A program made the translations under genes and the position numbers. Positions 10,145 through 60,404 of a stretch of DNA of 64,000 nucleotides are shown here, piece by piece; the stretch's first letter is position 1, and the number at the start of each line of letters is the position of its first letter. The notes beneath the pieces were generated by a model. It had not been told where the DNA came from and made no database searches. It saw nothing but the letters and a program-made list of their open reading frames with translations. This DNA comes from Phototrophicaceae bacterium. GTDB taxonomy: Bacteria > Chloroflexota > Anaerolineae > Aggregatilineales > Phototrophicaceae. The DNA lies in the NCBI GenBank assembly GCA_965237765.1, contig OZ250157.1, positions 1,295,508 through 1,359,507 on the forward strand. Direction: 5' to 3'.

Positions 10145-10311
10145 TTTCTATAAAAAGGTTATCCATCACCATCTACCCGAAGTGCACACAACAACTTATA
10201 CCCCTATAACTATTCCTTGCCCGCCTTCTCTAAGTCAGCAATGATGAATTTATTCATCTTTCGGGTTTAGACTATCACCGGTTTCCTTTCAGAAGCGGCA
10301 GTTACATTTGA

Positions 10312-10396
10312 CGGAGAGGGTGGGATTCGAACCCACGACGGCTTTCGCCGTACTCGCTCTCCAAGCGAGCGCATTAGGCCTCTATGCTACCTCTCC
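10312..10396 (-). tRNA. tRNA-Ser (anticodon GGA)
   Basis: Hand-folded cloverleaf: acceptor GGAGAGG/CCTCTCC, anticodon stem CTCGC/GCGAG with loop TTGGAGA, long variable arm CGGC-GAAA-GCCG, T-arm GTGGG-TTCGAAT-CCCAC. No encoded CCA. Confidence 0.9.
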
Positions 10397-10479
10397 GTGA
10401 GCATTCGAGCATCGAATGCTGGAGCAATCTAGTGTCGATTGCCTCGCCATATTAGCAATGAGGCCACCACCGCGCTAGC

Positions 10480-26416: not shown

Positions 26417-27448
26417 ATGAAATTCATCTTTGGCGCCAAGCCGAAAGCGCCCATCACCAACTTCACGCGGCTCGTGCAGCTGGGCGAAAGCCTCGGCTAT
26501 GACGCCGCTTGGATCCCCGATCAGACCTTCTTCCCGGACCCTTTCGTGACGCTGGCCGTCGTCGCCAGCCAGACCGAGCGCATCGAGCTGGTCATTGGCG
26601 TCGCCAATCCTTATACGCGCCACCCTGTGCAGGTCGCCCGCGCGGCCGCCACCCTGGATGATCATTGCCCCGGCCGGGTCGCCCTCGGTTATGGCGCCGG
26701 CAACCGGCGCGAGCTGATCGTACCGCTCGGCGGCGAGCAGGAGCAGGCGGCCGCCCACTGTCGCGAGGCGCTGCAGCTGTGCCGTCGCTTGTTGCGCGGG
26801 GAATTCCTGCACCACCGCGGGGAGCACTTCATCGCCGATGGCGTCGAGCTGGAGATGGCGCCGCATCCGGATGTGCCGCTCTATCTGGCGGCGCGCGGCC
26901 CGCTGGTCTTGCAGGTGGCCGGCGAGCTTGCCGACTGCGCGGTGATCGGCGCGTTATTGGATGAGGGGGCGCTCGCTTGGTCGCTGGAACAGGTCGCCAT
27001 CGGGGCGCAAAAGAGCGGCCGCAACCTGGAAGAAATCGGGCGGATGATCTGGATCACCTGCCACATCACCGAGGACGCGCCGCAGTCTTACGGCCGCAAA
27101 GGGACGGCACGCGCCTGGCTGGATCATTGCCGCCCTTCGGCCGCGCATATCCTGGCCGGGGCGCCGCCCGCCGTCTTTGAAGCGTTGCGCTTGACGGATC
27201 GCTTTCGCGATGAATTGAAAGCAGTTTATGGGGAGCGCGGCAGCGATGGGGCCGCCTCGCTCGTCTCCGATGATCTGGTGCAGCGCTTGATGGCGATCGG
27301 CCGCCCGGAGGAGGTCGCGGCGCAGCTGCAGGCGGCAATCGATACGGGCATCAACGAGATCGGCATCCTCGTCAATGCGCCGACCGTCGCTGAATCCGAA
27401 GCGGCGATTCAACGCTTCGCCGATGAGGTGATGCCGCGCCTGTGCTAA
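26417..27448 (+). CDS. LLM-class flavin/F420-dependent oxidoreductase
   Basis: MKFIFG...LGYDAAWIPDQTFFPDPFV...IGVANPYTRHPV...GYGAGN. Paralog of 32132-33136. Start at ATG 26417, not the track's 26093. Confidence 0.85.
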   Translation: MKFIFGAKPKAPITNFTRLVQLGESLGYDAAWIPDQTFFPDPFVTLAVVASQTERIELVIGVANPYTRHPVQVARAAATLDDHCPGRVALGYGAGNRRELIVPLGGEQEQAAAHCREALQLCRRLLRGEFLHHRGEHFIADGVELEMAPHPDVPLYLAARGPLVLQVAGELADCAVIGALLDEGALAWSLEQVAIGAQKSGRNLEEIGRMIWITCHITEDAPQSYGRKGTARAWLDHCRPSAAHILAGAPPAVFEALRLTDRFRDELKAVYGERGSDGAASLVSDDLVQRLMAIGRPEEVAAQLQAAIDTGINEIGILVNAPTVAESEAAIQRFADEVMPRLC

Positions 27449-27491: not shown

Positions 27492-27525
27492 AGCCACCGC
27501 TCGCAATGAGCGGTGGCTCTTTTTC
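27492..27525. terminator. Bidirectional rho-independent terminator
   Basis: AGCCACCGCTC-GCAAT-GAGCGGTGGCT followed by CTTTTTC. It lies between convergent genes. Confidence 0.7.
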
Positions 27526-27544: not shown

Positions 27545-28039
27545 TTACGGCGACGAAGTCGGCTCTGGCGAGAGAGTGCTCTCCCAAATACCCGCGCGAT
27601 TCGTTGCAGGCACCCCTCCTGAAGGTTTCGGCGGCTGGACAGGTTTTGGTGGATAGGGTATCGGAAAACCGCAGAGACGAAATTCTGGCTGCATTACAAC
27701 CGCGACCCAACTCGCCTCAGCAGGGGGAAGAAAATAGAAGAAATCCCAAAAAAGACCACCATTCTCCCAAGTAGCGCAGGGCGCGTCTGGGTAGGACTCC
27801 GCATATGCTGGATACGATCCTGGGCTATATTCAAATGGTGACATTGATTTCTCTGGGAAGAACAACGGTTGATCGACATGCGGCGGTGGCACTTGCCCAA
27901 GCGGGAATGAAGTCAGCGTCGGTGTCGCAAGCGGTGTGGAAGTACCAATGATAACCCCGAAAAGAACGTAACCAACCACCGATACAGCCATTACCGAGAA
28001 AAGCAAAAGCAGCAGGCCAACCTCTTTTTTGCCAAACAT
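27545..28039 (-). CDS. Membrane-anchored secreted protein, conserved Cys-containing C-terminal domain (paralog of 58196-58612)
   Basis: N-terminal TM segment and Pro-rich linker. Motifs shared with the paralog: YPAYAE.YPDAPCATW.NGGL and QPE.R.CGFP.PYP.KP. Confidence 0.55.
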   Translation of the reverse strand: MFGKKEVGLLLLLFSVMAVSVVGYVLFGVIIGTSTPLATPTLTSFPLGQVPPPHVDQPLFFPEKSMSPFEYSPGSYPAYAESYPDAPCATWENGGLFWDFFYFLPPAEASWVAVVMQPEFRLCGFPIPYPPKPVQPPKPSGGVPATNRAGIWESTLSPEPTSSP

Positions 28040-28051
28040 GGATACCCTTTC

Positions 28052-28309
28052 TTATGGGCTACAGTTTGAACTGAGGCATGGTTTATAAGCTGCATGGCCA
28101 CAAGGAGACTGATCGTAACACCAACATGTCCAGTATCCGCTTCCGGTTTCATAGTTCGTCGTAACAAAAACCAGAGTACAACGAATGGCGCTACCACCAG
28201 GACCGCCTGGATCAAGCGCTTTTGTCTTCACTTGCGCGAAAACCACTGCTGCTGAAATCGCAGACAGCAACAACACAACCACCAACAATCCCAAAGCTAA
28301 ACGCTTCAT
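28052..28309 (-). CDS. Small secreted Cys-rich peptide (about 85-aa precursor)
   Basis: Signal peptide MKRLALGLLVVVLLLSAISAAVVFAQ, then 6 Cys (IRCT...YWTCWCYDQSPCG...PCLSSNC). GGGAGG lies 7 nt upstream of ATG 28309. Confidence 0.5.
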   Translation of the reverse strand: MKRLALGLLVVVLLLSAISAAVVFAQVKTKALDPGGPGGSAIRCTLVFVTTNYETGSGYWTCWCYDQSPCGHAAYKPCLSSNCSP

Positions 28310-28382
28310 GAGAAACCTCCCTTTCATTGATGCCCACACTATTATATCGTGGATGTACTGAACGATAACTCATTGGTATTGA

Positions 28383-28462: not shown

Positions 28463-29557
28463 CTAATCCACGATGCGCAACTCACGCGGGAAGTGATTCA
28501 GCCTTTCGGCGCCGGTCGCGGTCACGGCGACGATGTCCTCAATCCGCACGCCATATTTACCCGCCAGGTAGATGCCCGGCTCGATGCTGAAGGTCATCCC
28601 TTCTTCCAGGACGGTCGTATCCCCCTGCACGAGGTAGGGGTATTCGTGGCCATCGAGGCCGATGCCGTGGCCGGTGCGGTGCAGGAAGGCGGGCCCGTAG
28701 TCCTGCGCGGTGATGTAATCGCGCGCGACGGAATCGATCTGCGCGGTCGTCACCCCGGGGCGGACCGCTTCGAAGGCGAGTTGCTGGGCTTCCTGGGTGA
28801 TCTGGTAGATGCGGCGGAACTCAGGAGGCGGCTCGCCGACATGGAAGCTGCGCGTGATGTCGGAACGGTAGCCGCGCCAGCCGCCGCCAAAATCGATGAC
28901 GATGGCATCACCTTTGGCCAGGCGCCGCTCACTCGTCTTGTGGTGCGGCGAAGCGCTATTCGGCCCCGCGCCGACGATGCCACCGCCGCTCAGCTCCAAC
29001 CCGCGCTCCGCCAGGCCGCGGTGCAGGAAGCGGAGCACTTCCAGCTCCGTTTTGCCGACGATGGGCTGGGATAGCAGGGAGGCGAGCGCGTCTTCGGTCT
29101 TCGCCGCGGCATCGCGCAGGGCATCGATTTCAGAGGCGGTCTTGACCATACGGATGCGGGCCAGGACGTGGTTGCCTTCCAGCCAGCTGGCGCCAGCCAG
29201 GGCGGCCTGCAGGCGCAGGGTGAAGACGGTGTGCAATTGGTCGGCGATGGCGATCGTTTGCCCCGCGCCAGCGCCGACGACTTCGCGGACTTTCGCCACC
29301 GGGTCTTCGGTTTCTTCCCAGCCGATCAGGTCAAAGAAGCTCGCATAGGGCTGGAAGACGGGGATTTCGAAGGCGGGGACGACCATCTTCGCGCGCCCTT
29401 CGCGCGGCAGCAGGAAGAGCGCCAACCGTTCGCTGGGCCGTTTGGTGAAGCCGATGAGGTAGAGCAAGTCGGTGGAATGCGAGGCAAAGAGCCAGTCGCA
29501 ACCCGCCGCCGCCAGCGCGCCCTGGGCGCGCGCGCAACGTTCCGCATATTCGTTCAT
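28463..29557 (-). CDS. M24 family metallopeptidase (Xaa-Pro aminopeptidase/dipeptidase-like)
   Basis: DFGGGWRGYRSDITR, HRTGHGIGLDGHEYP and SIEPGIY metal-ligand motifs. Confidence 0.85.
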   Translation of the reverse strand: MNEYAERCARAQGALAAAGCDWLFASHSTDLLYLIGFTKRPSERLALFLLPREGRAKMVVPAFEIPVFQPYASFFDLIGWEETEDPVAKVREVVGAGAGQTIAIADQLHTVFTLRLQAALAGASWLEGNHVLARIRMVKTASEIDALRDAAAKTEDALASLLSQPIVGKTELEVLRFLHRGLAERGLELSGGGIVGAGPNSASPHHKTSERRLAKGDAIVIDFGGGWRGYRSDITRSFHVGEPPPEFRRIYQITQEAQQLAFEAVRPGVTTAQIDSVARDYITAQDYGPAFLHRTGHGIGLDGHEYPYLVQGDTTVLEEGMTFSIEPGIYLAGKYGVRIEDIVAVTATGAERLNHFPRELRIVD

Positions 29558-30765
29558 CAGAATTCAGCGATGTACAGCTCTTTGGGGAAAAGGCTGAGGA
29601 TTTCGCAGCCGTCTTGGGTAACCAGGAGGATATCCTCCAGCGCGAAATTGCCGATGACGTGCTCCGGCCGGTCCCAGTAGATCGGCTCGACGGTGAGCAC
29701 CATATTGGGCTGGATGACCAGGTTGCTGCCTTTGGCGAGCGAGGGCGGCTCGTGGACATCGAGGCCCAGCCCGTGGCCGACGCGTTCCAGGCCGGGGACG
29801 TGTTCTTTCATGCCATGTTCCATGAGTACGTTGTAGCAAGCGGCGAAGATCTCGTGCGCGGTGGCGCCCGGCTTGACGGCAGCGACGCCGGCCTTTTGCG
29901 CGGCGAGGTTGGCATCGAAGAAGCGGCGCTGCTCGGCGCTCGGCTCACCCATGGAGGCCATGCGCATGTAATCCGACCAGTAGTAGTGGTAATTGGCGCC
30001 AGCATCGACGACGATCAGCTCGCCGGGCTGGATCGCGCGTTCGAAGGGCTCGACGTTTACCATGCCGTATTTCTCCACGCCAGAGCGCACCATGATGAAG
30101 CCGGGCATCTCGCCAGTTTGCAGGACCATCTCGGAGAGGAGCAGGCTGCCCAGTTCGCGCTCGGTCATGCCGGGGCGTAGCTCGGCGAAAGCGCGTTCGT
30201 AGGCGCGCGTCGTCGCATCGGCGGCTTTGCGGAGCTTCTCGACTTCGCGCGGTGATTTGATCATGCGCAGTTCCCACATCAGCGGGCCGACATCGACGAA
30301 GGTGGCCTTGCTGAAACGGCCGGTCAGGTCCTGTAAATCCGCCTGCGACATGGCGATGCGCTGCCCATAACCCAGCTCGAGGCCAATCGTGCCATCCGCC
30401 ACGCCGAGCTGTTCGCAGGCATCGTAAATTGCCGTCAGCGGGTCGGGCGCGGCGTCGGCAATGCGCCAGCCGCCCCAGGGGCGCACCTCTTCGATCCATG
30501 AGGATTCATAAGCGACATCGAAAAGGCTTTCGGCGACGACGCTGATGACGGGCTTGCTGTTGTCCTGCGGCACGATGATGCCCAGCGGGCGATGCTTCGA
30601 ATTCCAGCCGATGGTGCGGATGCCGGAGAAATAGATGCCATTTTCTTTGGCGGTGAGGATGATGACGTCGATGCCGCGCGCGGCCATCCGTTCGCGCGCG
30701 CGTTCGACGCGGCTCAGGTATTCCTCGGTCGGAAACATGGCGTAGTTGGGTTCACGGTGAGACAT
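29557..30765 (-). CDS. M24 family metallopeptidase (creatinase/prolidase-like)
   Basis: VDAGANYHYYWSDYMR, GHGLGLDVHEPP and TVEPIYW. 1-nt stop/start overlap with the downstream M24 gene. Confidence 0.85.
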   Translation of the reverse strand: MSHREPNYAMFPTEEYLSRVERARERMAARGIDVIILTAKENGIYFSGIRTIGWNSKHRPLGIIVPQDNSKPVISVVAESLFDVAYESSWIEEVRPWGGWRIADAAPDPLTAIYDACEQLGVADGTIGLELGYGQRIAMSQADLQDLTGRFSKATFVDVGPLMWELRMIKSPREVEKLRKAADATTRAYERAFAELRPGMTERELGSLLLSEMVLQTGEMPGFIMVRSGVEKYGMVNVEPFERAIQPGELIVVDAGANYHYYWSDYMRMASMGEPSAEQRRFFDANLAAQKAGVAAVKPGATAHEIFAACYNVLMEHGMKEHVPGLERVGHGLGLDVHEPPSLAKGSNLVIQPNMVLTVEPIYWDRPEHVIGNFALEDILLVTQDGCEILSLFPKELYIAEF

Positions 30766-36654: not shown

Positions 36655-37701
36655 ATGTTTCACTGGACATACCGCGATTCTGGCGGGGCGACGACGGACT
36701 TGATTCCGCTCTTCCAGCACACGCTCCAGCTCTGCAACCTGCGCGAGGGCGAGCAGGTGATGGTCTATGGCGACCACCACACGCCGATGCACTACGCCAA
36801 GGCGGCCATGGCCGCGGCGCAGAACGCTGGCGCGCAGGTCTTCCAGCTGGAGGTGCCCACCGAAGGGGGCGATATCCTCTCCGGCCCGGTCTGGGATATC
36901 TGGCATGCGGTGGATTTGGTGGTGGATCTGGAATCGATCGGCACGAGCATTTACCGGCCGCTGCGGGTCAGCGCGCTGGAGGCGGGCATTCGCGTCTTGC
37001 GGGTGACCCAGCCGGAGGATGTGCTCTTCCGCCTCAAGCCCTTACCCGTGTTGCGGGACCGCGTGCGCCGCTGCGAGGCCCTATTGGCCGCGGCACGTGA
37101 GCTGCGGGCCACCTCGCCAGCGGGGACGGATCTGGTGTTGAATACCGCCGATCGTAAGGCTTTTGGGCTCTGGGGCGCGGCCGATCAACCCGGCAAGTGG
37201 GATCACTGGTCGGTGGCGGTCGTCGTCGGGGGCGCCAGCCGCCCGCGCAGCAATGGGCGCCTGGTGATCGATGTCGGCGATATCATCCTCGGCATGCGGC
37301 GCTACGCGACCACCCGCATCGATCTCATCATCGAGGAAGGCATCATCACCCGCATCGAGGGCGAGGGCCTGGACGCGCATTTGTTGCGGAATTGGTTCGC
37401 CAGCTGGGGCGACGAGCGCGCCTATCATATTTCGCATGTCGGTTGGGGCTGTGATGAGCGCGCCGATTGGGGGCGGATGGCCGGGCCGACCGGCGGCATC
37501 GGCGACGCGGAATCCTACCCGGGCGTCTTCCAGATCGCCTTCGGGCGCGATACCTCTTGGTATATCGGCGACGGCACCAACGACGTCGTCGCCCATATCG
37601 ATTTCAACGGGCTAGCGCATAGCATCACGCTGGATGGCGTGCCGATCACGGAAAATGGGCGCTTCGTGCACCCGGATTTGGCTCATATCACGATCGATTG
37701 A
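36655..37701 (+). CDS. NicX-like protein, paralog 2
   Basis: DQPGKWDHWS, ISHVGWG and AHIDFNG. GGGAGG lies upstream of ATG 36655. Divergent from paralog 1. Confidence 0.65.
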   Translation: MFHWTYRDSGGATTDLIPLFQHTLQLCNLREGEQVMVYGDHHTPMHYAKAAMAAAQNAGAQVFQLEVPTEGGDILSGPVWDIWHAVDLVVDLESIGTSIYRPLRVSALEAGIRVLRVTQPEDVLFRLKPLPVLRDRVRRCEALLAAARELRATSPAGTDLVLNTADRKAFGLWGAADQPGKWDHWSVAVVVGGASRPRSNGRLVIDVGDIILGMRRYATTRIDLIIEEGIITRIEGEGLDAHLLRNWFASWGDERAYHISHVGWGCDERADWGRMAGPTGGIGDAESYPGVFQIAFGRDTSWYIGDGTNDVVAHIDFNGLAHSITLDGVPITENGRFVHPDLAHITID

Positions 37702-37737
37702 GTGCGGTCGCCGACCGACGACGACTGAGCAGTCGCC

Positions 37738-38826
37738 CTAGATTCGCTCGCCCGTTTCCAGGTAGTGCAACAATTGCTCGCGGTTCATGCCGGCGATGCC
37801 CATCGCTGCGGCGTTGCGCCCTGTCGCCCAATAATCCTCTTCTTCCGTAACGCAGAAGAGGTGATTGATGCTGTCGTTGATGGGCGTCGGTACCTCGAGC
37901 AGGCGCCCCAGCGACGAATAGAGCACCGAGCCATAGGGCACGTCTTCGGTGATGTAGCGGTCCCAGATGCGGTCACGCAAGTTGAAGGGTTCTCCCTGTA
38001 CGCGGTAGACATGGGGGCCGCTGCCAGTTTGGCGGTAGAGGTCATCGATGAATACGACCTCCAGCCCCAGCGCGCGCTGCAAGGCCATCTTCTCCTCATC
38101 GACGGCATCCAGCAGGCGCAGCACGCCGGGCGTCATCCCTTCGTTCATGATGGAGAGGTAGCCATCCTGGCGTTCGACGGCGGCGTAATTCAGCAACATC
38201 GGCGCGGGGTGGATCATGAAATTGGGGTTGTTGAGGCCGGGATCCAGCACGTTGGGTTTGGGGATGAGGCGCAATGTATCGCCCAGCCGCTCCATCAGCC
38301 GCTCGGTATTGCGGCCGGGGAAGGCGGCGCAGCGCAGGTTGGACGGCAGGCGGATGCGCAGCTTGCCGGGGCCGACCATGCGCGCTGATTGCGGCAGGGT
38401 GACGGTTTCGCCCAGCAGGATGTCATCCAGGCTGTGGCCGGCCGCGCGCAGCAGCGGCGCCAGCTCCAGCGAGCCGGCCGAGCCGGTGAGTAGCAGGATG
38501 ATCTGCCCGGCGCGCAGGTAGGGCAAACAGGCCTCCAGCATCGGTTTTTGCCCGTAGGCGGGCACGGCGATGAGGATCAGATCGACATCCGCCATAGCCG
38601 CGGCGATGTCGGTGGTAATCAGGGCGAGCGGCACCAGCTCCTCGGCCTCGTCCCCGCCGACCAAATCCCCTTCGATTACGACGCCGCCCTGCTCGAGGAT
38701 GGCCGCGATGCGCTCGCGGGTGCGGTTGTAGAGGTGGACGGTATAACCACGGCGGGCGAGGGCAGCGGCGGCTGCCATGCCCCCCGGGCCAGCGCCCATC
38801 ACCAGGATGCGTTCGATCGCGCTCAT
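37738..38826 (-). CDS. NAD(P)-dependent octopine/nopaline (opine) dehydrogenase family protein
   Basis: Rossmann motif MGAGPGGMAAAAALARRG. C-terminal NNPNFMIHPAPMLLN...EGMTPGVLRLLDAVDEEKMAL is typical of the family. Confidence 0.75.
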   Translation of the reverse strand: MSAIERILVMGAGPGGMAAAAALARRGYTVHLYNRTRERIAAILEQGGVVIEGDLVGGDEAEELVPLALITTDIAAAMADVDLILIAVPAYGQKPMLEACLPYLRAGQIILLLTGSAGSLELAPLLRAAGHSLDDILLGETVTLPQSARMVGPGKLRIRLPSNLRCAAFPGRNTERLMERLGDTLRLIPKPNVLDPGLNNPNFMIHPAPMLLNYAAVERQDGYLSIMNEGMTPGVLRLLDAVDEEKMALQRALGLEVVFIDDLYRQTGSGPHVYRVQGEPFNLRDRIWDRYITEDVPYGSVLYSSLGRLLEVPTPINDSINHLFCVTEEEDYWATGRNAAAMGIAGMNREQLLHYLETGERI

Positions 38827-39953
38827 GGGTGCAAGATCTGCAATTCGTGTGTGCTCTGATTGAAACGGCGCGCGCCGTCGGCCGTCACGGTGACGATGTC
38901 TTCGATGCGCACGCCGAAGCGCCCTTTCAAGTAGATGCCGGGTTCGATGCTGAAGACCATCCCTTCGCGCAGGACGGTGGTATCGCCCTGGACGATGTAA
39001 GGCGCTTCGTGGATATCGAAACCGAGGCCGTGGCCGGTGCGGTGCAGGAAAGCCTCGCCATAGCCCGCTGCGGTGATATGCCCGCGAGCGACGGCATCGA
39101 TCGATTCGGCCGTCACGCCCGGCCGCACCGCCTCGAAAGCGAGTTGGTTAGCTTCGTTGACGGTGTCATAGACACGCCGATATTCCTCCGAGGGCGGGCC
39201 GACGTGGAAGCTGCGCGTCATATCGGACCAGTAGCCATTCACGGAGCTACCGAAATCGATGACGACGGCATCGCCCGGCGCGATGCGGCGCGGGCCGACG
39301 TGGTGGTGCGGCGAAGCGCCGTTCTCGCCGACGCCGACGATGGCGCCGGCCGGGGCGCCACTATCGTGGCCGTGTTGCGGCAGGAGCGCCATCAGTTGCT
39401 GCTTGACTTCGGCTTCGCTCATGCCGACCAACGGCAGCTCCAGCAGGGCGAGGTAAGTGCGGTCGGCCGCGGCGCCCGCCTGGGTCAGGTATTCCAGCTC
39501 GCGCGCTTCTTTGACCATGCGGATGGGGTTGAGCAAGGCGCCGCCGGGCACGAATTCGGCTTCGGATGCGGCGGCCTGCAGGCGATAGAGGAAATGCGAG
39601 AAGATCTGGTCGGCCACGCCCAGGCGCAACGCTCGCCCATGGGGAGCGTCGGGCAGCGAGGCGGCGAAACGCTCGAAGGGGCTTTCAGTTTCTTCCCAGG
39701 GGATGAGGTCGAAGAAATGCGCTAGCGGCTCCGCCAGAGCCGTCTCGAAGCTGGGGAGGAGGAGGCGTGGCCTTTCACTTTCGGCGGCGGGCAGGATGAA
39801 GAGCGTCAGACGCTCGGATTGCGGTCGGCTCAGGCCGATCAGGTAGAAGAGGTCGCTCGAGGGGCCGACGAGCAAGGCATCGGCGCCCGCGGCGCGCAGG
39901 CCCTCTTGTACCCGCTGGCAGCGCGCCGCGTAATCAAAAGGTTGGTTATCCAT
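38823..39953 (-). CDS. M24 family metallopeptidase (Xaa-Pro aminopeptidase-like)
   Basis: DFGSSVNGYWSDMTR, HRTGHGLGFDIHEAP and SIEPGIY. 4-nt overlap with the opine dehydrogenase gene. Confidence 0.85.
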   Translation of the reverse strand: MDNQPFDYAARCQRVQEGLRAAGADALLVGPSSDLFYLIGLSRPQSERLTLFILPAAESERPRLLLPSFETALAEPLAHFFDLIPWEETESPFERFAASLPDAPHGRALRLGVADQIFSHFLYRLQAAASEAEFVPGGALLNPIRMVKEARELEYLTQAGAAADRTYLALLELPLVGMSEAEVKQQLMALLPQHGHDSGAPAGAIVGVGENGASPHHHVGPRRIAPGDAVVIDFGSSVNGYWSDMTRSFHVGPPSEEYRRVYDTVNEANQLAFEAVRPGVTAESIDAVARGHITAAGYGEAFLHRTGHGLGFDIHEAPYIVQGDTTVLREGMVFSIEPGIYLKGRFGVRIEDIVTVTADGARRFNQSTHELQILHP

Positions 39954-39971
39954 GGCTGTTTTGCAACCGCA

Positions 39972-41030
39972 TCAACCGGGGCGGGTGCCGTGGCCGGTCT
40001 GCGTGCCGCCGGTTTCCGTGGTGATACCGACCTCGCCTTGGTGGCGCAGCTCTTCGCGCACGAATTCGCCGTTCTCCATGATGTGGATGTCATCCACCCA
40101 GTAGCTGTTGTTGAGGCAGGGGAAATCGATATGCGAATTGGTGAGGGTAGTGGCGCCTTTGAAGATGCCGATGTTGGAGCCGAAGGCGATCTGCATGTTG
40201 GCGTACATGCACTCGTTATCCTGCCCGGGGATGAGCCAATTGGCGCGCTTCTCGCAACCCCAGCCGACGTGGGCGATGCGGTAGGAATCTTCCGAATTGA
40301 ATTGCGCGAACCAGCGCTTGAGCAGTTCGGCTTGCATGCCGCCTTTGATGCTGGTGATGCGGCCGTCTTCCATTTCCAGATGGACGGTATCGTGAACGTA
40401 TTGATTGAGTACGAGCATGTAATCACCCGGGGAAAGCACGAGGACACCGCCGCCTTTGTGCTCTTCCGGCGCGCAGCAGACCATCCCGCTCGGCCAGATA
40501 TCCCAACGGCCGGGGACGTCAGAGACGCTGTAGATGCCCATCGGGTCGCGCCCTTCTTTATGGAAGGTGAGGTCCGTGCCGCCGGGGGAAGTGATGCGCA
40601 TGGTGCTGGCGGCCTGCATGAGTTTTTGGCCGGCGAGGACGCGCTCTTTCAGTTCGGTCGTGGGGAAGAGGCGGCGCATGGTGTTGACGGGCACGCCGAT
40701 GCGCTGCAGGCGCGTGTTGGCTTCGATGGCATCGCGCATGATGGTGCCGTAGGCGTGTGGCCCGGAGGAGACATCGATGACCAGGTCGGCGCGCCTCCAG
40801 GCGTCGACGACCGCTGTTTCTTCGCGGTTGGGGTGCACGATCTGGAAGACATCGGCGCCGAGCTGAATCGCGGCACCCATGTAGGCGGCGGCGTAGTGGG
40901 GATAGCTGCCCGGGTCGGTATGGATGAGGACATGTTCGCCGGGTTGCACCTGGCATAGTTCGAGGTGACTCCGGAACATCTCCACCAATTGCGTGCTCGC
41001 CGCGTAATTCAGAGCCAGCCGTTCTACCAT
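39972..41030 (-). CDS. NicX-like protein, paralog 3
   Basis: DVPGRWDIWPSG, IAHVGWG and SHIDFPCLN..YWVDD. Confidence 0.65.
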   Translation of the reverse strand: MVERLALNYAASTQLVEMFRSHLELCQVQPGEHVLIHTDPGSYPHYAAAYMGAAIQLGADVFQIVHPNREETAVVDAWRRADLVIDVSSGPHAYGTIMRDAIEANTRLQRIGVPVNTMRRLFPTTELKERVLAGQKLMQAASTMRITSPGGTDLTFHKEGRDPMGIYSVSDVPGRWDIWPSGMVCCAPEEHKGGGVLVLSPGDYMLVLNQYVHDTVHLEMEDGRITSIKGGMQAELLKRWFAQFNSEDSYRIAHVGWGCEKRANWLIPGQDNECMYANMQIAFGSNIGIFKGATTLTNSHIDFPCLNNSYWVDDIHIMENGEFVREELRHQGEVGITTETGGTQTGHGTRPG

Positions 41031-41137
41031 GTTATATCTCCTAAATTAATCCTAAACGTGCCCCGCAAGATAGCACGAAGCGCGTACGGAATTCAAATTA
41101 CCGCAGCGCCGCGAGCGAAGGCATCCACTCAGGATAC

Positions 41138-43123
41138 TTACTGGCAATCCGGGTAGATCTCGTACGAGAGCGTATCCTCATACTCACCCGGCGCGGCCGT
41201 TCGGTAAAGACCGTAGCGGATGAGCGAGACGCTCTCTGGAGCGGCGGCCAGCGGGTAGATATCGTGGATCGATTCACCAGCGAGCCAGCTCGTGAGGGGG
41301 CGCCAACCATATACCGGCGCGACTTGATCGCCCTGCGCCACCAGTTCCCCGGCAGGGTCGTAAGCCTTGACGAAAACGCTCAGGTTTTCTTCCGGTATGG
41401 TCGCACCCGTCTGCCAGGTTACCGCGAGCGAAAGGCTGCCTTCCTCACAACGCACGGATGCCGATTGGGCGCGCAGCGGCCCGGCCGCTGGCAGCGATAA
41501 CTGTGGCGTGATGGAGATCTGTGCCAGCTGCGGCGCGGCGGCCTGGAGGTATATCGGCCGCGCGAGGGTCCTGGCCCACCAGTCAGGCGGATGGTTGAAG
41601 AATGTGTAGGCGGGTGTGACGAGCGTGCCGCGGGCAACGATTGTGGCTAGGTCGCTTTTGTCGTTGACCAGCGTGATATGATCGAGCCGGTCCAGGTAGA
41701 GCTGCCCGGCCGCCGCGGCAAAATAGCGCGTCCCCCAGGCCAGCATCACGGTGGAATCCCGTGGCGCTGCCGCGAGCGTATCGATCGTTTCAAAGCCGGT
41801 GGTGTCGGTCGTCAAATCCTGAATATGGGGGAAATTCTGGCGAATCAGGAATGCCGCCACGCCGATGACGAGGATGGTGAGGGCGCCCTTCGCGGCCGGG
41901 CTTTCGTGCGCGGCGCGCAACAGCGCATCGCTCAGGAAGAGCCAACCAAAGGCCAGGCTGAATGTTATGGGCAAGAGCAGCGCCACGAGTACGTCATGGT
42001 ACCAGAGCACATGGAAGACCCAGGCGGCGAGCGCGTTCAGCGCCAGGGGCAAGGCGAATCGCTGCCGACGGCGCAGGGCAATCGCAAGGCCGACGATGCC
42101 CAGGAATAACCCCGGCAGCGTCAGATTGGCAATCAGCGCGTGGTTGACCGTCTGGAAATTCTCGAACAGGGCGGGTAACGACGCCGGCCGGCCGATATAG
42201 ACGGCGGCTTCCGCGCCGACGATCTCATCCCAGACGCCACGCAGGCTCCCTGGCTGGCCATATATCCAGTCCGCGCCGGCTCGCGCGCGCAGGATCAGCC
42301 AGAGGTATTGGCTGAGGCCGAGCGAACCCAGCAACAGGCTGCCGCCCAGCGTACGCAGCGCGCGGCGAAATGAGCCATGTGCGGCGCGCCATCGCGCCTC
42401 CGTTATGTCTGCAGCAGTGAATGCTGCGTCTGTAGTCAATACTGCGCCCGCAGTTAATGTTGCGGCAAGCAGAGCGGGGATACTTGTGACGATGGCGCGA
42501 TGATGGAAGAGCGCGAAGCCGCCGAGCAATGCCAGTGTGTAGACGCGGCCGCGCCCTCCGCCCTCCGCCAGCAAAAATAACAGCAACAGTAGCAAGAGCG
42601 TAAACGTGTAGATTTCGGCGATGACGGCATGTAACCAGTAATCGCGCGTGAGGCCAAAGAGCAGTAACATCCCGGCTGCCAACCAGGGTCGGAACGTCAG
42701 TCGCAGGGCCAACAGGTACACCAGGGCCAGAGCGAGCAACCCCCAGAATAAGGAGACCAGCGCCGCGGCGAAGATGGGTCCGACGCCGAACCAACCGGCG
42801 AAAGTGGTCAGGATGTTGCCGCTGATGACGTAGAGCGGGTAGCCCGTCGCATGCAGGCTGCCCCATTCGTTCAGGACGATTTGCGCTTCGCCCACATCCA
42901 CCATGAAACGCTGGCTGGAACCGTTGGGAATGGTCTGGAGGGTGGGCAGGTAGCAGGCGAGCAGGATGATGAGGGCAGCGATCGCCGGCAGCCAGTCTTC
43001 CTTTTGGTTGGATATTCGCGCCCGCGCCGCCTTCATCCAGCGATTTGACCCATGAGCGGCGCGCCTGATGATCGCGCCGGATTGCCAACGGGCGATAGGA
43101 GGCACAATGTGCGCCGGTGGCAC
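41138..43123 (-). CDS. DUF2723 (TMEM260-like glycosyltransferase fold) membrane protein
   Basis: RFMVDVGEAQIVLNEWGSLHATGYPLY N-terminal motif and many TM segments. The start may be the internal ATG 43036. Confidence 0.7.
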   Translation of the reverse strand: MPPAHIVPPIARWQSGAIIRRAAHGSNRWMKAARARISNQKEDWLPAIAALIILLACYLPTLQTIPNGSSQRFMVDVGEAQIVLNEWGSLHATGYPLYVISGNILTTFAGWFGVGPIFAAALVSLFWGLLALALVYLLALRLTFRPWLAAGMLLLFGLTRDYWLHAVIAEIYTFTLLLLLLLFLLAEGGGRGRVYTLALLGGFALFHHRAIVTSIPALLAATLTAGAVLTTDAAFTAADITEARWRAAHGSFRRALRTLGGSLLLGSLGLSQYLWLILRARAGADWIYGQPGSLRGVWDEIVGAEAAVYIGRPASLPALFENFQTVNHALIANLTLPGLFLGIVGLAIALRRRQRFALPLALNALAAWVFHVLWYHDVLVALLLPITFSLAFGWLFLSDALLRAAHESPAAKGALTILVIGVAAFLIRQNFPHIQDLTTDTTGFETIDTLAAAPRDSTVMLAWGTRYFAAAAGQLYLDRLDHITLVNDKSDLATIVARGTLVTPAYTFFNHPPDWWARTLARPIYLQAAAPQLAQISITPQLSLPAAGPLRAQSASVRCEEGSLSLAVTWQTGATIPEENLSVFVKAYDPAGELVAQGDQVAPVYGWRPLTSWLAGESIHDIYPLAAAPESVSLIRYGLYRTAAPGEYEDTLSYEIYPDCQ

Positions 43124-44319: not shown

Positions 44320-44955
44320 CTAATTCCGAGACTCGTATTCCTGCAAGTAATCGATCGCATTTTGTAAGTGATTCTCCCCATTCTTAAAACGCCCTAAACC
44401 GGTGTTACATGAATCGCAAATGATTCCTCTTGGTTGTCGACGCTCTTGATCATGATCCACCACTAAATTAGCGGTCACATTGGCAATCGTTATCTTTCGA
44501 CATACCGGACATTGCCAACAATCGCCCTTATCTGGTGCGCCAACGGATTCTTTGAATCTTACTTTAACTCTGGTGGAGAGAGGTGGCCCGCTTTCCAACT
44601 CATAACATTCTTTACAGCGTGGTCGTGTAATTGGACCGAGGCGGTTATTTTGGTTTAATGGAAATTCACTTAAGCTTTTTAGCCGATGGCAAGATAAACA
44701 TATCTTTGGATCTGTTCGCGGGCCACTGGTAGTAGGGTCAAAAGTCTCAATATCCTCATTGTTGACTAGATACTCCCTTTGTTTCCCTAGAATAAACACA
44801 ACACTGCGTTGCGAGCCAACTTTAACACGGTAACCGATTGACATCGCACCAAAATTTTCTGGCGGATTTATCCCAGGTCGACGATTATCATTTGGCCAAC
44901 CTAGTCCATTTCTGATGAGTACGCAGTCCTCACGCTGAAAGAGGCTCAATGTCAC
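44320..44955 (-). CDS. Putative restriction endonuclease with a His-Me finger (endonuclease VII / HNH-like) domain
   Basis: VVDHDQERRQPRGIICDSCNTGLGRFKNG matches the EndoVII-type DHDxxxGxxRGxLCxxCN motif. Low GC. 4-nt overlap with the upstream methyltransferase gene. Confidence 0.6.
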   Translation of the reverse strand: MTLSLFQREDCVLIRNGLGWPNDNRRPGINPPENFGAMSIGYRVKVGSQRSVVFILGKQREYLVNNEDIETFDPTTSGPRTDPKICLSCHRLKSLSEFPLNQNNRLGPITRPRCKECYELESGPPLSTRVKVRFKESVGAPDKGDCWQCPVCRKITIANVTANLVVDHDQERRQPRGIICDSCNTGLGRFKNGENHLQNAIDYLQEYESRN

Positions 44956-45830
44956 AGTAAAAATTTCCTCAACCGTTTCTCTGCTATGTCAATATACTCA
45001 CTCGCAATATCAATTCCGATGTATCGTCGTTTGTTCAGCATCGCCATTTTGCAAGTTGTGCCTGAGCCGCACATCGGATCCAGGACGATTTCCCCGGGGT
45101 TGCTCCAGGATAAGATATGATCCTCAGCCAACCGTTCTGGGAATACGGCCGGATGCTGGAAGGCGATCTTATCCCTTGTCGTCCCGCCAAGACCTACCGC
45201 ATAAGACCAGATATTGGTGAGAGTCTTCTCCCGTTTCAGCATGGCACGCCGTTTCTTATTGATACCATCCGGCAATTTGTTGTGTGTTAACATCTCTTCA
45301 CCGCTGCGCACTGTCGGCGCTTTCAGCGGGTTGAACGTCTTGGGCGGGCCACCCTTCGAAAGCACCACCATCAATTCGTAAGCATTGGTGTAGGCGTTTG
45401 AGCGCATAAATGGTGTGTTCTTCTTTTGGTATATCATCACATCATGGACTGTAAAACCAATTTCTTGAAAATGAATGGCTTGCCGGAAACTCGTTAGTGT
45501 GCGGCCACCATTGATTTTGTCTCCTACAACCCATACAACGACACCACCTTTTTTGGTGACACGGAATAGCTCAGCAGCAATACCTTCGAAGTCAAATTGA
45601 TAACCCTCATAATTTCGCAATGTGTCGTAGGGTGGTGACGTTACCGTCAAATCAATGCAATTATCCGACCAGCGTGACATAACATCCACACAATTGCCGT
45701 GATAAAGTGTATCGACTGAAAAAACCCTTTTACGCTTAATTTTCGCTGGGGATGAAATGACTGTACTTACCATAGTTGGCCACCCCAATATGATTGCTTG
45801 TATACTTGTTCTATAAATAATATACAACAA
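44952..45830 (-). CDS. DNA methyltransferase, beta-class, probably N4-cytosine (SPPY)
   Basis: Motif IV is LTVTSPPYDT and motif I is LDPMCGSGTTCKMAMLNKRRYIGIDI. Low GC. Confidence 0.85.
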   Translation of the reverse strand: MLYIIYRTSIQAIILGWPTMVSTVISSPAKIKRKRVFSVDTLYHGNCVDVMSRWSDNCIDLTVTSPPYDTLRNYEGYQFDFEGIAAELFRVTKKGGVVVWVVGDKINGGRTLTSFRQAIHFQEIGFTVHDVMIYQKKNTPFMRSNAYTNAYELMVVLSKGGPPKTFNPLKAPTVRSGEEMLTHNKLPDGINKKRRAMLKREKTLTNIWSYAVGLGGTTRDKIAFQHPAVFPERLAEDHILSWSNPGEIVLDPMCGSGTTCKMAMLNKRRYIGIDIASEYIDIAEKRLRKFLL

Positions 45831-49968: not shown

Positions 49969-50275
49969 GGGCGGGCGCCTCCTATCGGCGAGGTAGCGCT
50001 TTCTGAGCGATTCCTTCGGGGTAACCTGCCCGCATTCTAATCTTGGCTGGCCGGCGCTGCAAGATACCCCTGAGGCGGCCCCACAGCCACCGATGATGAT
50101 TCCTATTTCACCGCAAAATCACTAAGGAGATGGAGAATTGCGACGGAATCGCCGATGGAATCGCACTAATTTCCGCATCCCGCGGGTATACCTGCCCCAT
50201 TTCCGCAACAGAGTTGCTAGGCGCGCGGAATTGCGTCATCTTTATGTCAGATACATACCTAAGAGAGGTCTATCC

Positions 50276-51145: not shown

Positions 51146-51208
51146 TATCCGCGCCTGCGAACCAAGCGGGTGAGCCAAGCTGTACTATCAAATAAAAGGG
51201 GTCTATCC

Positions 51209-57841: not shown

Positions 57842-57869
57842 TTGACAACCGAGATAGGGAGAATATAAT
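57842..57869 (+). promoter_or_regulatory. Near-consensus sigma70-like promoter for the Cys-rich peptide cassette
   Basis: TTGACA (57842-57847), a 16-nt spacer, then TATAAT (57864-57869). GAGGAGGG RBS before ATG 57903. Confidence 0.55.
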
Positions 57870-57902
57870 TAACCTTGTCTGTATTGTGAGGAGGGAATGA
57901 TC

Positions 57903-58187
57903 ATGAAGAGATTTAGTTTCATATTTCTGCTGGTAGTGGTGTTGCTACTGGCTGTCGTTCCCGCGCTGGGTGTGGGAGAGAATGCTGGGTTTTGTATAGA
58001 CTAGGAGCGCGACGGTGGTGTCGGGGCGAGGTGTACCACCAACTGCGGCGGTTCCAACGGTAGCGATTGGGTCATAAGGTGCACAGTGCGTCATCATTGG
58101 GATCGAGGGTATTTTTGTACGTGTTGGTGGTGTAACAACAATACAGCGCCCGGTGGATGCGGTGCGGCCAGACCGTGTCCGATTTAG
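57903..58187 (+). pseudogene. Small secreted Cys-rich peptide gene (paralog of 28052-28309) with in-frame TAG at 58002-58004
   Basis: Own translation: MKRFSFIFLLVVVLLLAVVPALGVGENAGFCID*ERDGGVGARCTTNCGGSNGSDWVIRCTVRHHWDRGYFCTCWWCNNNTAPGGCGAARPCPI*. Not in the supplied track. Confidence 0.4.
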
Positions 58188-58195
58188 GGGATGCG

Positions 58196-58612
58196 ATGAC
58201 CAGTAAAAGGCTGCTGATCCTGCTGATGGTGGCGGTAGTTATGGTGGTGGGGTGTAACTACTTTGGGAAGAGATCTGATACGCCACCATCGCTTTCACCT
58301 TCTTCATCGTCAACGTCTGTGCCGCGCACTCTGCAACCGCCGCCAGCGGTGGATCGGCCGCTTTATTATTCAGAGAGCACGCTCGATAGTGGGATTCTGG
58401 TGTACGGGCCAGACCTTTATCCTGCCTATGCGGAGGCTTATCCCGACGCGCCCTGTGCGACCTGGGATAACGGTGGTCTCAATTGGGTTTATCTCGATAT
58501 GCCACCTGAAGAAAGGGGTTGGTTCGTTGAATTGAAACAACCCGAATATCGTTTTTGTGGCTTTCCGTCGCCATATCCGGAGAAACCAGCGGAGCCGACG
58601 GCGGCGCCATGA
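58196..58612 (+). CDS. Membrane-anchored secreted protein, paralog of 27545-28039
   Basis: MTSKRLLILLMVAVVMVVGC (TM segment or lipobox-like) and a Ser/Pro linker. Shared motifs YPAYAEAYPDAPCATWDNGGL and QPEYRFCGFPSPYPEKP. Confidence 0.55.
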   Translation: MTSKRLLILLMVAVVMVVGCNYFGKRSDTPPSLSPSSSSTSVPRTLQPPPAVDRPLYYSESTLDSGILVYGPDLYPAYAEAYPDAPCATWDNGGLNWVYLDMPPEERGWFVELKQPEYRFCGFPSPYPEKPAEPTAAP

Positions 58613-58874
58613 GTGAGGCATTCAGGCACTACCGAACACCGTCCGTATCAGCGGGCGGTGTCTTTTTTTGATGATGAGAACTTGGGATGCTTTTCGCCGG
58701 CATCAAGATGCGCGACTCCAGCAGCAATGGAGGGCCTGCGGGCCGCGGAATTCGTGGCCGTTGGGTCAGGCGCGCGCGGCCGCCTCAGCAATCGTCAACC
58801 AGGATATCATCCTGCAGGATGTCATCCTGCCATTCGGGCTGCGCTGGTTTGTCGCTAGACCCTCGGCTTAGCGA

Positions 58875-60218: not shown

Positions 60219-60404
60219 CTCATCTCTTTTCTTTTCTCGCAGTTTGATAGTAGACATAAGAATACTGGATTGCGCCTCTTCCCCCAAGAATCGGTGGCGG
60301 CGCATGATCTTATAGCCGTCTGCATCGTCATTGGCGGCATCCCAATTAAGCGTGTCGCTGGCTGGCTGGGGCCGGGGCGACGACCGTGGCGACGGGCGCC
60401 GGTA

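What the first reader, a model, noticed from the sequence alone, without database searches (positions are those of the whole stretch)
27545..28309. Two paralogous low-GC cassettes: a small secreted Cys-rich peptide followed by a membrane-anchored partner with a conserved two-Cys domain
Locus A lies on the minus strand (peptide 28052-28309, partner 27545-28039). Locus B lies on the plus strand (peptide 57903-58187, partner 58196-58612). They share architecture and motifs despite low overall identity.

The peptides have a signal peptide and a conserved core: IRCT-x(7-12)-Y(W/F)-TC-(x)-CW-(x)-C-x(5-6)-CG-x(3-4)-PC. Peptide A has 6 Cys, and peptide B has 8 or more.

The partners have an N-terminal TM anchor and a Pro/Ser-rich linker. 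Their conserved motifs are YPAYAE(S/A)YPDAPCATW(E/D)NGGL and QPE(F/Y)R(L/F)CGFP-x-PYP-x-KP.

Both loci are AT-rich islets with their own promoter-like and strong RBS signals. Locus A is bounded by a clear bidirectional terminator.

I do not recognise either family. Candidate roles are a disulfide-rich bacteriocin or signal peptide with an immunity, receptor or maturation partner, or a small toxin/anchor pair.
Basis: seen in the sequence. Interest (0 to 1): 0.7.

Follow-up and report, generated by a model that had tools for sequence, protein, structure and literature searches.

The report
Secreted cysteine peptide plus tethered partner
Two small self-contained operons in this Chloroflexota genome each encode an exported cysteine-rich peptide followed by a membrane-tethered partner protein; both families are uncharacterised and confined to one lineage, and they most plausibly form a toxin-plus-immunity pair, though no function has been shown.

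Summary
Both loci are two-gene, low-GC (0.48-0.55 against 0.63) cassettes. The partners are clear paralogues (55% identity over 88 aa, E 3e-32). The peptides are weak but real relatives. Peptide B is not an open frame: it has an in-frame TAG at 58002-58004, where the syntenic orthologue has Gln.

Neither family matches Pfam, NCBIfam, PADLOC, PHROGs, PDB sequences or any solved fold. The partner family has about 33 clusters among 1.84 billion representatives. All named members are Chloroflexota or Anaerolineaceae MAG proteins, with five or more paralogues per genome.

Of 15 partner loci examined, 14 have a signal-peptide plus Cys-rich ORF directly upstream. Ten are intact and four are independently broken while the partner stays intact. 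One 0.9-kb cassette is present in a 94%-identical relative at a site that is empty in this window (39947-39968). The peptide core is under purifying selection (dN/dS 0.13).

Best reading (confidence about 0.4): a Sec-exported, disulfide-rich antagonistic peptide with a surface-tethered immunity or sequestering protein. This parallels Sec-dependent class II bacteriocins and LanI-type immunity lipoproteins, without homology to either. Rival readings are a ligand/receptor pair or a maturation partner.

The parts
28341..28346 (-). Locus A: perfect -10 hexamer TATAAT, 31 nt upstream of the pepA ATG. The -35 is weak (best 3/6).
   Evidence: Read from the sequence. The consensus scan did not call a full promoter.
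28316..28321 (-). Locus A: ribosome-binding site GGGAGG, 6 nt before the pepA ATG.
   Evidence: Comparable SD sites precede the peptide gene in nearly all related loci.
28052..28309 (-). pepA: 85-aa precursor. Sec-type signal peptide is residues 1-25 (28235-28309, ...VVFA|Q). The mature 60-aa peptide (28055-28234) has a Gly-rich spacer, 6 Cys, a C-x-C motif (TCWC) and a C-terminal ...PC...CSP.
   Evidence: The AF2 model is all-beta and hairpin-like but has low confidence (pLDDT 64.5).
27545..28039 (-). partA: 164 aa, starting 12 nt after the pepA stop in the same frame. Features: N-terminal signal anchor (about residues 8-31), a Pro/Thr-rich linker, the conserved two-Cys domain (residues 51-136, 27632-27889; Cys88 and Cys123), and a C-terminal tail NRAGIWE...PEPTSSP (27548-27601).
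   Evidence: AF2 model of the domain: pLDDT 82, pTM 0.73. No fold match.
27492..27518 (.). 12-bp-stem G+C-rich hairpin between the convergent partA and the luciferase-like monooxygenase gene. It probably acts as a bidirectional terminator.
   Evidence: -32.6 kcal/mol on the minus strand and -25.1 kcal/mol on the plus strand. No shuffle of 200 folds as well.
57842..57869 (+). Locus B: consensus sigma-70-type promoter, TTGACA-16 nt-TATAAT (12/12).
57888..57895 (+). Locus B: ribosome-binding site GAGGAGGG, 7 nt before the pepB ATG.
57903..58187 (+). pepB: a 94-codon peptide gene interrupted by an in-frame TAG at 58002-58004 (codon 34). The signal peptide lies before the stop. The Cys core (58005-58184) carries the CTTNC and CTCWWC motifs and the ...PCPI end. 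It is probably a recent pseudogene.
   Evidence: The syntenic orthologue L009 has CAA (Gln) at this codon and is intact. dN/dS of the post-stop core is 0.13.
58196..58612 (+). partB: 138-aa predicted lipoprotein (lipobox VVGC, Cys20 at 58253-58255). It has a Ser/Pro-rich linker and the conserved two-Cys domain (58337-58597). Its RBS overlaps the pepB stop codon.
58636..58669 (+). Locus B: intrinsic-terminator-like hairpin (11 pairs) followed by TTTTTTT, 24 nt after the partB stop.
39947..39968 (.). Empty site. An 18-nt spacer separates the NicX-like gene and an M24 peptidase gene. A 94%-identical relative (L023) carries a complete peptide+partner cassette of about 0.9 kb (P0028) at this position.

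Best explanation
Each locus is an autonomous two-gene operon with its own promoter, strong ribosome-binding site and terminator.

Gene 1 encodes a precursor with a Sec signal peptide. After export and signal-peptidase cleavage it yields a peptide of about 55-70 aa with a Gly-rich N-terminal spacer and an aromatic, disulfide-rich beta-hairpin-like core (conserved C-x-C...C...CP).

Gene 2 is translationally coupled 8-12 nt downstream. It encodes an acidic extracytoplasmic domain with one probable disulfide (PCATWENGGL...RFCGFP.PYP.KP). A Pro/Ser/Thr-rich stalk holds this domain on the outer face of the membrane, through a lipid anchor (partB) or an uncleaved signal anchor (partA).

I infer that the peptide is an antagonistic, bacteriocin-like molecule released against competitors. 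I also infer that the tethered partner binds and sequesters it at the producer's surface, that is, acts as its immunity protein.

Shown: the gene anatomy, the conserved pairing, coding selection, lineage restriction, copy number, strain-level gain and loss, and repeated peptide-gene inactivation with the partner retained. Inferred: export, disulfides, binding, toxicity and immunity.

Locus A looks functional. Locus B has lost its peptide (TAG) and would now be an orphan immunity gene.
For: 1. Pairing. Of 15 partner loci examined, 14 have a signal-peptide plus Cys ORF directly upstream on the same strand. L022 carries two cassettes in tandem.
2. Both genes are coding. dN/dS against the orthologue is 0.14 for the peptide and 0.27 for the partner. 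Strong SD sites are present.
3. Orphan-immunity pattern. Peptide genes are broken independently in four loci while the partner stays intact:
   - TAG in window locus B.
   - Frameshift in L008.
   - A 44-aa remnant without a signal peptide in L012.
   - In three near-identical genomes (L016, L017, L018), a shared TGA at codon 4 plus different 16-, 3- and 7-bp indels, while the partner differs by one synonymous SNP.
   - P0032 is a solo partner conserved in four or more MAGs.
4. Accessory behaviour.
   - One cassette is a clean indel of about 0.9 kb between the window and a 94%-identical relative.
   - partA has no homologue above 53% identity among 5.8 billion protein clusters, although another protein of the window is present there exactly.
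   - There are five or more divergent paralogues per genome.
   - No neighbouring gene recurs as a conserved partner of the cassettes.
5. Topology matches known systems. Sec-dependent class II bacteriocins have the immunity gene adjacent (PMC6700250). NisI, SpaI and PepI are immunity lipoproteins on the outer face of the membrane that share no sequence homology with each other (PMC4094520).
6. The partner ectodomain is acidic in 11 of 12 pairs.
Against: - There is no homology or fold similarity to any bacteriocin or immunity family.
- The mature peptides are not consistently cationic (net charge -2 to +4).
- The partner core is much more conserved than the peptides: PCATWENGGL is nearly invariant across about 30 clusters. 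That fits a common ligand or activity better than peptide-specific recognition.
- Between orthologues the peptide is under stronger purifying selection than the partner, with no sign of an arms race at that scale.
- The cassettes are scattered singly, with no transporter or regulator.
- One lineage also carries a frameshift in the second domain of a two-domain partner.
- There are no expression or activity data.
Confidence: 0.4

Rival explanations
1. A non-antagonistic secreted ligand with a tethered receptor or display module. The partner holds the peptide on a stalk at the cell surface for adhesion, host interaction or kin recognition, not for killing or immunity. The lineage may live in sponges, but that habitat is not verified.
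For: - The pairing is conserved and the partner is extracytoplasmic and tethered.
- The partner core is highly conserved while the peptides vary.
- The peptides are not cationic.
- Cassettes are multi-copy, divergent and strain-variable, as expected for polymorphic surface determinants.
- Losing the peptide could be a way to evade a host or a phage.
- The sample label ROBB21-1 may correspond to the sponge study PMC8163846. This is an unverified inference.
Against: - The partner has essentially no cytoplasmic part (6-10 residues), so it cannot signal inward.
- Solo partners persist without a peptide. That is odd if the partner's only role is to display its peptide.
- No adhesin-like or eukaryotic-like domains were detected.
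Confidence: 0.25
2. The partner is a dedicated extracytoplasmic maturation or folding factor for the peptide, for example thiol-disulfide exchange, removal of a propiece, or chaperoning. It would not be an immunity protein.
For: - The nearly invariant partner motif (C, W, N, G, W) looks like a conserved active or binding site acting on features common to all the peptides, namely the QDR-GGG N-terminus, the C-x-C motif and the C-terminal CP.
- A subset of partners has CPDC, CEEC or CADC where partA has SPGS. This falls at the N-cap of the predicted helix 27-32, the usual geometry of redox-active CxxC motifs.
- Translational coupling would give matched stoichiometry.
Against: - The window's two partners lack the CxxC motif.
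- No His is conserved, so a Cys-His protease is unlikely.
- Partners are retained intact after the cognate peptide gene is destroyed, and solo partners are conserved across MAGs. A peptide-specific foldase should decay together with its substrate.
- There is no fold similarity to thioredoxin or Dsb proteins.
Confidence: 0.15
3. The interruptions of the peptide genes are not defects but programmed recoding: stop-codon readthrough at TAG or TGA, or a -1 frameshift. Recoding would keep expression of a toxic peptide low.
For: - The lesions lie between the signal peptide and the core, or very early in the ORF, in several independent loci.
- The post-stop core of pepB shows a purifying-selection signature (dN/dS 0.13).
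- In L008 the two frames overlap at CUA-AAG, a possible -1 slip site.
Against: - The lesions differ in kind and position at each locus, and the orthologue of pepB is simply intact.
- L016 and L017 carry non-triplet indels of 16 and 7 bp.
- No suppressor tRNA or recoding signal was found in the window.
- The low dN/dS is explained by a recent mutation, because it averages over the whole divergence from the orthologue.
Confidence: 0.03
4. The small upstream ORFs are not genes. Only the partner family is real, and the peptide similarity is chance or signal-peptide bias.
For: - Pairwise similarity of pepA and pepB is weak (E 0.003).
- pepA alone has no database hit.
Against: - dN/dS is 0.13-0.14.
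- A profile built from non-window peptides, mature regions only, still ranks the pepB core (E 8e-6) and pepA (E 2e-3) top of 1177 segments.
- SD sites, promoters and Cys patterns are conserved in 14 of 15 loci.
- Public annotations call these peptides as genes (P0045-P0050).
Confidence: 0.02

Closest known systems
Sec-dependent class II (unmodified) bacteriocins with an adjacent immunity gene, for example enterocin P / enterocin Gr17 (PMC6700250)
   Same: - A small ribosomal peptide is made with an ordinary Sec signal peptide, so no dedicated ABC exporter is needed.
- The peptide is disulfide-stabilised.
- A small protective protein is encoded right next to the structural gene.
- The module is compact and strain-variable.
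   Different: - There is no sequence or profile similarity (no YGNGV motif, no Pfam bacteriocin or EntA_Immun hit).
- The peptides here are larger, richer in Cys (5-9) and not consistently cationic.
- Class IIa immunity proteins are cytoplasmic four-helix bundles, whereas this partner is extracytoplasmic and tethered.
- The host phylum is Chloroflexota, not Firmicutes.
LanI-type immunity lipoproteins (NisI, SpaI, PepI) (PMC4094520)
   Same: - The protein is anchored on the outer face of the cytoplasmic membrane by a lipobox Cys (partB, P0001, P0016, P0039).
- The proposed mechanism is sequestration of the producer's own peptide.
- The known LanI proteins share no sequence homology with each other either.
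   Different: - There is no lanthipeptide biosynthesis machinery and no LanFEG transporter nearby.
- partA and many other family members use a signal anchor instead of a lipid anchor.
- The predicted partner fold matches no solved structure.
- The domain is much smaller (about 90 aa).
Cystine-stabilised beta-hairpin or defensin-like antimicrobial peptides (from my own knowledge: for example laterosporulin, protegrin/tachyplesin-type C-x-C ladders)
   Same: - A C-x-C motif sits within a predicted beta-strand and several disulfides are likely.
- The core is rich in aromatic residues.
- The AF2 model is a long beta-hairpin.
   Different: - The model has low confidence (pLDDT 64.5) and no fold match.
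- The Pfam defensin-like hit is far below threshold (E 0.36).
- The resemblance is recalled from memory, not tested.

Membership tests
Class II Sec-dependent bacteriocin + immunity pair | A small, ribosomally made, unmodified peptide with an N-terminal leader or Sec signal peptide. | tested here: met
   pepA and 10 relatives have an n-region with K/R, a hydrophobic core (KD19 of 2.9-3.1) and an A-x-A-like cleavage site. No modification enzymes lie nearby.
Class II Sec-dependent bacteriocin + immunity pair | Sequence membership of a known bacteriocin or immunity family (Pfam/NCBIfam models). | tested here: not met
   There are no hits above threshold for 4 window proteins, 31 partners and 10 peptides. 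There are no PDB sequence hits either.
Class II Sec-dependent bacteriocin + immunity pair | The immunity gene is adjacent to the structural gene and co-transcribed with it. | tested here: inconclusive
   The arrangement fits: gaps of 8-12 nt, one promoter and one terminator per cassette. The immunity function itself is untested.
Class II Sec-dependent bacteriocin + immunity pair | Antimicrobial activity of the mature peptide and specific protection by the partner. | not testable with these tools
   This needs an experiment.
Class II Sec-dependent bacteriocin + immunity pair | A cationic, amphiphilic mature peptide. | tested here: not met
   Net charge is -2 to +4 over 12 peptides, +1 for pepA and 0 for pepB.
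LanI-type immunity lipoprotein | A lipoprotein signal peptide with a lipobox Cys. | tested here: inconclusive
   partB has VVGC (Cys20). partA has VVGY and no lipobox. The family as a whole mixes lipobox, signal-anchor and cleavable signal-peptide forms.
LanI-type immunity lipoprotein | Location in a lanthipeptide biosynthesis cluster (LanA/B/C/M/T, LanFEG). | tested here: not met
   The neighbours are a luciferase-like monooxygenase, M24 peptidases, an EamA transporter and an aminotransferase.
RiPP precursor (sactipeptide, ranthipeptide or another Cys-rich RiPP) | An adjacent maturase (radical SAM, cyclodehydratase or similar) and a leader peptide that is not a Sec signal. | tested here: not met
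   No such gene lies in any of about 10 different neighbourhoods. The N-terminus is a classical Sec signal peptide.
Defensin-like or knottin fold | A recognisable cystine-stabilised fold or profile match. | tested here: inconclusive
   Pfam AtDEF-like scores E 0.36, 11.6 bits against a cut-off of 25. The AF2 model has pLDDT 64.5 and Foldseek finds nothing with E <= 0.001.
Entericidin-type lipoprotein toxin/antitoxin | Match to the entericidin A/B models. | tested here: not met
   Only the signal peptide of partB aligns, at E 0.26 and 11 bits against a cut-off of 86.
Phage, plasmid or defence-system gene | Match to PHROGs or PADLOC, or presence on phage or plasmid records. | tested here: not met
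   There are no hits.

The most novel reading that the evidence does not exclude
The cassettes are not bacteriocin/immunity pairs. They would be a previously undescribed, Chloroflexota-specific surface system: a polymorphic exported cysteine-rich ligand captured by a stalked receptor domain of a new fold. The cells would use it for kin or host recognition (possibly in sponge symbiosis) or as a phage or host-defence decoy, with peptide loss and cassette turnover reflecting escape from recognition.
Probability: 0.25. Interest if true: 0.75.

Novelty: new variant of a known kind. Interest (0 to 1): 0.5.

Why it matters
If the toxin/immunity reading is right, these cassettes are the first antagonism modules described for this poorly studied, uncultured Chloroflexota lineage. 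They would add a new disulfide-rich peptide scaffold and a new immunity fold, both invisible to current bacteriocin-mining tools, which depend on known families or on neighbouring transporters.

The cassettes are tiny (about 0.9 kb), self-contained and easy to synthesise, so the hypothesis can be tested directly. Peptide loss with the partner retained, and presence or absence between 94%-identical genomes, also provide a compact natural example of producer and 'immune cheater' dynamics in a microbial community.

If the reading is wrong, the nearly invariant PCATWENGGL domain still marks an unknown extracytoplasmic function specific to this lineage.

Tried and rejected
- pepA alone against 5.8 billion protein clusters: no hit.
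- Scan of JGI metagenome contigs with the partner motif: nothing confirmed.
- Foldseek of the partner model against PDB and BFVD, and of the peptide model against PDB: nothing with E <= 0.001.
- PDB sequence searches with both profiles: nothing.
- PADLOC, PHROGs, and tblastn against phages and plasmids: nothing.
No complex model could be made.
- Exact look-ups of two genes flanking locus A (the M24 peptidase 28463-29557 and the monooxygenase 26417-27448), meant to fetch that region from close relatives: both failed. Presence or absence of locus A in relatives therefore rests only on the lack of any close partA homologue.
- Literature searches for the MAG and sample accessions did not confirm the habitat. 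The sponge origin remains an inference from sample labels.
- No third cassette is present in the window.
- The weak NCBIfam hits (ICE protein TIGR03758, entericidin, a DWW pheromone) are signal-peptide artefacts far below their cut-offs.
- Hits P0040-P0043 of the profile search are low-complexity repeat proteins, not family members.

Full report
**Observation**

Locus A lies on the minus strand.
- pepA (28052-28309) is an intact 85-aa ORF. partA (27545-28039, 164 aa) follows 12 nt later in the same frame.
- pepA has a Sec-type signal peptide (MKRLALGLLVVVLLLSAISAAVVFA|Q). Its mature part of 60 aa has a Gly-rich spacer and six Cys.
- Upstream are a perfect TATAAT (28341-28346) and GGGAGG (28316-28321).
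- Downstream, a 12-bp-stem hairpin (27492-27518) folds strongly on both strands.

Locus B lies on the plus strand.
- It has a 12/12 consensus promoter (57842-57869), a GAGGAGGG ribosome-binding site and a hairpin with a T-run (58636-58669).
- Its peptide gene (57903-58187) is not open. Codon 34 is TAG (58002-58004), between the signal peptide and the Cys-rich core.
- partB (58196-58612) has a lipobox (VVGC). partA has VVGY at the same place and is a signal-anchor protein.

Comparison of the two loci:
- The partners share 55% identity over 88 aa (E 3e-32).
- The peptides are only weakly alike pairwise (E 0.003).
- GC content is 0.48-0.54 in the four genes against 0.627 for the window.
- No third copy exists in the window.

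**Are the peptide ORFs real, and is the pairing conserved?**

The partner family is very small.
- partA finds three clusters among 5.8 billion.
- A profile of the domain finds 38 proteins among 1.84 billion representatives, of which about 33 are genuine.
- The members are 80-225 aa long. All have an N-terminal anchor or signal, a Pro-rich linker and PCATWENGGL..W..RFCG[FI]P.PYP.KP.

I examined the DNA upstream of 15 partner loci.

| State of the upstream peptide gene | Loci |
|---|---|
| Intact (10) | window A, L009, L005/L001, L011, L013, L019, L021, L022 (two tandem cassettes), L023 |
| Recognisable but broken (4) | window B (TAG); L008 (frameshift); L012 (44-aa remnant without a signal peptide); L016/L017/L018 |
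| None (1) | L024/L025, partner P0032 |

Further evidence that the peptide ORFs are genes:
- A profile built only from the non-window peptides ranks pepA (E 9e-12) and the pepB core (E 1e-10) first and second among the window's 1177 six-frame segments. With mature regions only, the E-values are 2e-3 and 8e-6, and the next best segment scores 0.25.
- Against its orthologue in the MAG WTGJ01 (L009), dN/dS is 0.14 for pepB, 0.13 for the part after the TAG, and 0.27 for partB.
- Nearly every peptide gene has a near-consensus Shine-Dalgarno site.

The small ORFs are therefore genes, and the cassette is a conserved unit. The TAG in pepB is a recent lesion: L009 has CAA (Gln) at that codon. Locus B is syntenic with L009.

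**Distribution and dynamics**

- In one-genome-per-species GTDB contigs, only one species representative matched the two motif patterns used, the MAG 'Chloroflexi bacterium CO36387bin_22'. It has four loci. The patterns would miss divergent members.
- All named members are hypothetical proteins of Chloroflexota or Anaerolineaceae MAGs. Individual MAGs (locus tags OXF22_, OXG02_) carry at least five paralogues.
- The neighbourhoods differ at every locus and hold ordinary metabolic genes.
- L023 is 93-95% identical to window 37514-42237 and colinear with it. It carries a complete cassette of about 0.9 kb (peptide plus P0028) between the NicX-like and M24 genes. In the window those two genes are 18 nt apart (39947-39968).
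- partA has no homologue above 53% identity in the 5.8-billion-cluster collection. Another protein of the window (M24, 38823-39953) is present there exactly, on a 2.68-Mb contig. Locus A therefore appears to be private to this strain. This is an inference, because the look-ups of its flanking genes failed.
- In three nearly identical genomes (L016-L018) the peptide gene shares a TGA at codon 4. It also carries different 16-, 3- and 7-bp indels, while the partner gene differs by one synonymous SNP.

**Structure and homology**

- Pfam, NCBIfam, PADLOC, PHROGs, PDB sequences, and phage and plasmid records give nothing.
- AF2 models the partner domain with fair confidence (pLDDT 82, pTM 0.73). It predicts a small alpha/beta unit of three strands and two short helices. 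Foldseek finds no similar solved or viral structure.
- The mature pepA model is an all-beta hairpin of low confidence (pLDDT 64.5), with no match.
- A complex could not be modelled.

**Mechanism**

What is established is the topology. A peptide is exported by Sec. An acidic two-Cys domain is held outside the membrane on a Pro/Ser/Thr stalk. Both are made from one short transcript.

Four points favour an antagonistic peptide with a surface immunity or sequestering protein:
- Peptide genes are lost repeatedly and independently while partners are retained, and solo partners exist.
- Cassettes are gained or lost between close strains.
- Each genome carries many divergent paralogues.
- The gene order is that of Sec-dependent class II bacteriocins (PMC6700250), and the location is that of LanI lipoproteins (PMC4094520).

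Five points count against this reading:
- The peptides are not consistently cationic.
- The partner core is far more conserved than the peptides.
- The peptide is under stronger purifying selection than the partner between orthologues.
- A partner domain can also decay: the P0003 allele has a 1-nt deletion and occurs in at least eight contigs.
- No functional data exist.

I put the toxin/immunity reading at about 0.4, a non-antagonistic ligand/receptor or display module at about 0.25, and a maturation factor at about 0.15. Recoding and non-coding readings are a few percent each.

**Novelty**

Both protein families are undescribed and have no detectable relatives. The architecture resembles known peptide-plus-immunity modules. 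I therefore file the finding as a new variant of a known kind, with moderate interest (0.5). The cassette is well defined, small and directly testable.

Noticed in passing
window 39947-39968 and L023 2120-3010: A relative that is 94% identical over window 37514-42237 carries a whole peptide+partner cassette between the NicX-like and M24 genes. The window has only an 18-nt spacer there. I did not look for flanking repeats or mobility genes.
   Followed up: yes
window 58629-60417 (aminotransferase class III gene 58875-60305, minus strand): This gene, with GC of 0.55-0.58, lies directly downstream of locus B. It is absent from the otherwise syntenic MAG locus L009, where positions 6382 and 6452 are contiguous. 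Conversely, L009 has an extra secreted protein gene (4739-5428) upstream of its cassette. The surroundings of locus B are an indel hotspot.
   Followed up: partly
L016, L017, L018, about 3780-3990: The peptide gene of the P0016 cassette is an indel hotspot in three near-identical long-read genomes. The 16-bp insertion in L016 (GTAGTTTAAGAGGTGT) exactly duplicates the stop codon and RBS segment at the 3' end of the same gene. All three genomes share a TGA at codon 4.
   Followed up: partly
L022 1154-2828: Two complete cassettes lie in tandem: a 79-aa peptide with P0020, then a CTTNC-type peptide with P0013. Their upstream regions are very similar, which points to tandem duplication of the whole unit.
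   Followed up: partly
partner family alignment A7 (partA residues 72-76 and the C-terminus): A subset of partners has CxxC (CPDC, CEEC, CADC) where partA has SPGS. Most partners end in T-x-x-P-COOH. Many carry extra tail motifs (EWxxW, NRxGIWE, PEPTSSP) of unknown meaning.
   Followed up: no
P0031 (from the profile search): One protein joins a signal peptide and an 'ACTTDC' peptide-type motif directly to a partner domain. This could be a natural peptide-partner fusion or a deletion chimera.
   Followed up: no
L001-L004 versus L005-L007, position about 6526: The two-domain partner occurs as an intact allele (P0001, 255 aa) and as an allele with a 1-nt deletion in the second domain (P0003, 274 aa). 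The frameshifted allele is found in at least 8 contigs from several samples, so it is a real variant and not an assembly error.
   Followed up: partly
window 28463-30765 and 38823-39953; L023 3011-4144: M24 (Xaa-Pro aminopeptidase or creatinase-like) genes lie next to cassettes at window locus A and at L023. This is two of about 13 neighbourhoods and may be coincidence.
   Followed up: no
window 44320-45830 (minus strand): Another low-GC islet (0.44-0.50) encodes an N6/N4 DNA methylase followed by a protein with His-Me finger and endonuclease VII domains. It looks like a restriction-modification module.
   Followed up: partly
window 50138-52090 (plus strand): A low-GC stretch (0.48-0.52) holds two ORFs with bacterial SH3_3 domains, probably secreted or cell-wall-binding proteins. 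The L009 and L001 neighbourhoods also hold SH3-type proteins.
   Followed up: no
peptides P0047-P0050 and L011: This peptide subfamily conserves an N-x-[ST] sequon (PGSNAT, PGTNSS) inside the Cys core.
   Followed up: no
window 10310-10397 (minus strand): tRNA-Ser(GGA), the only RNA gene found in the window, lies in a low-GC stretch (0.49).
   Followed up: no
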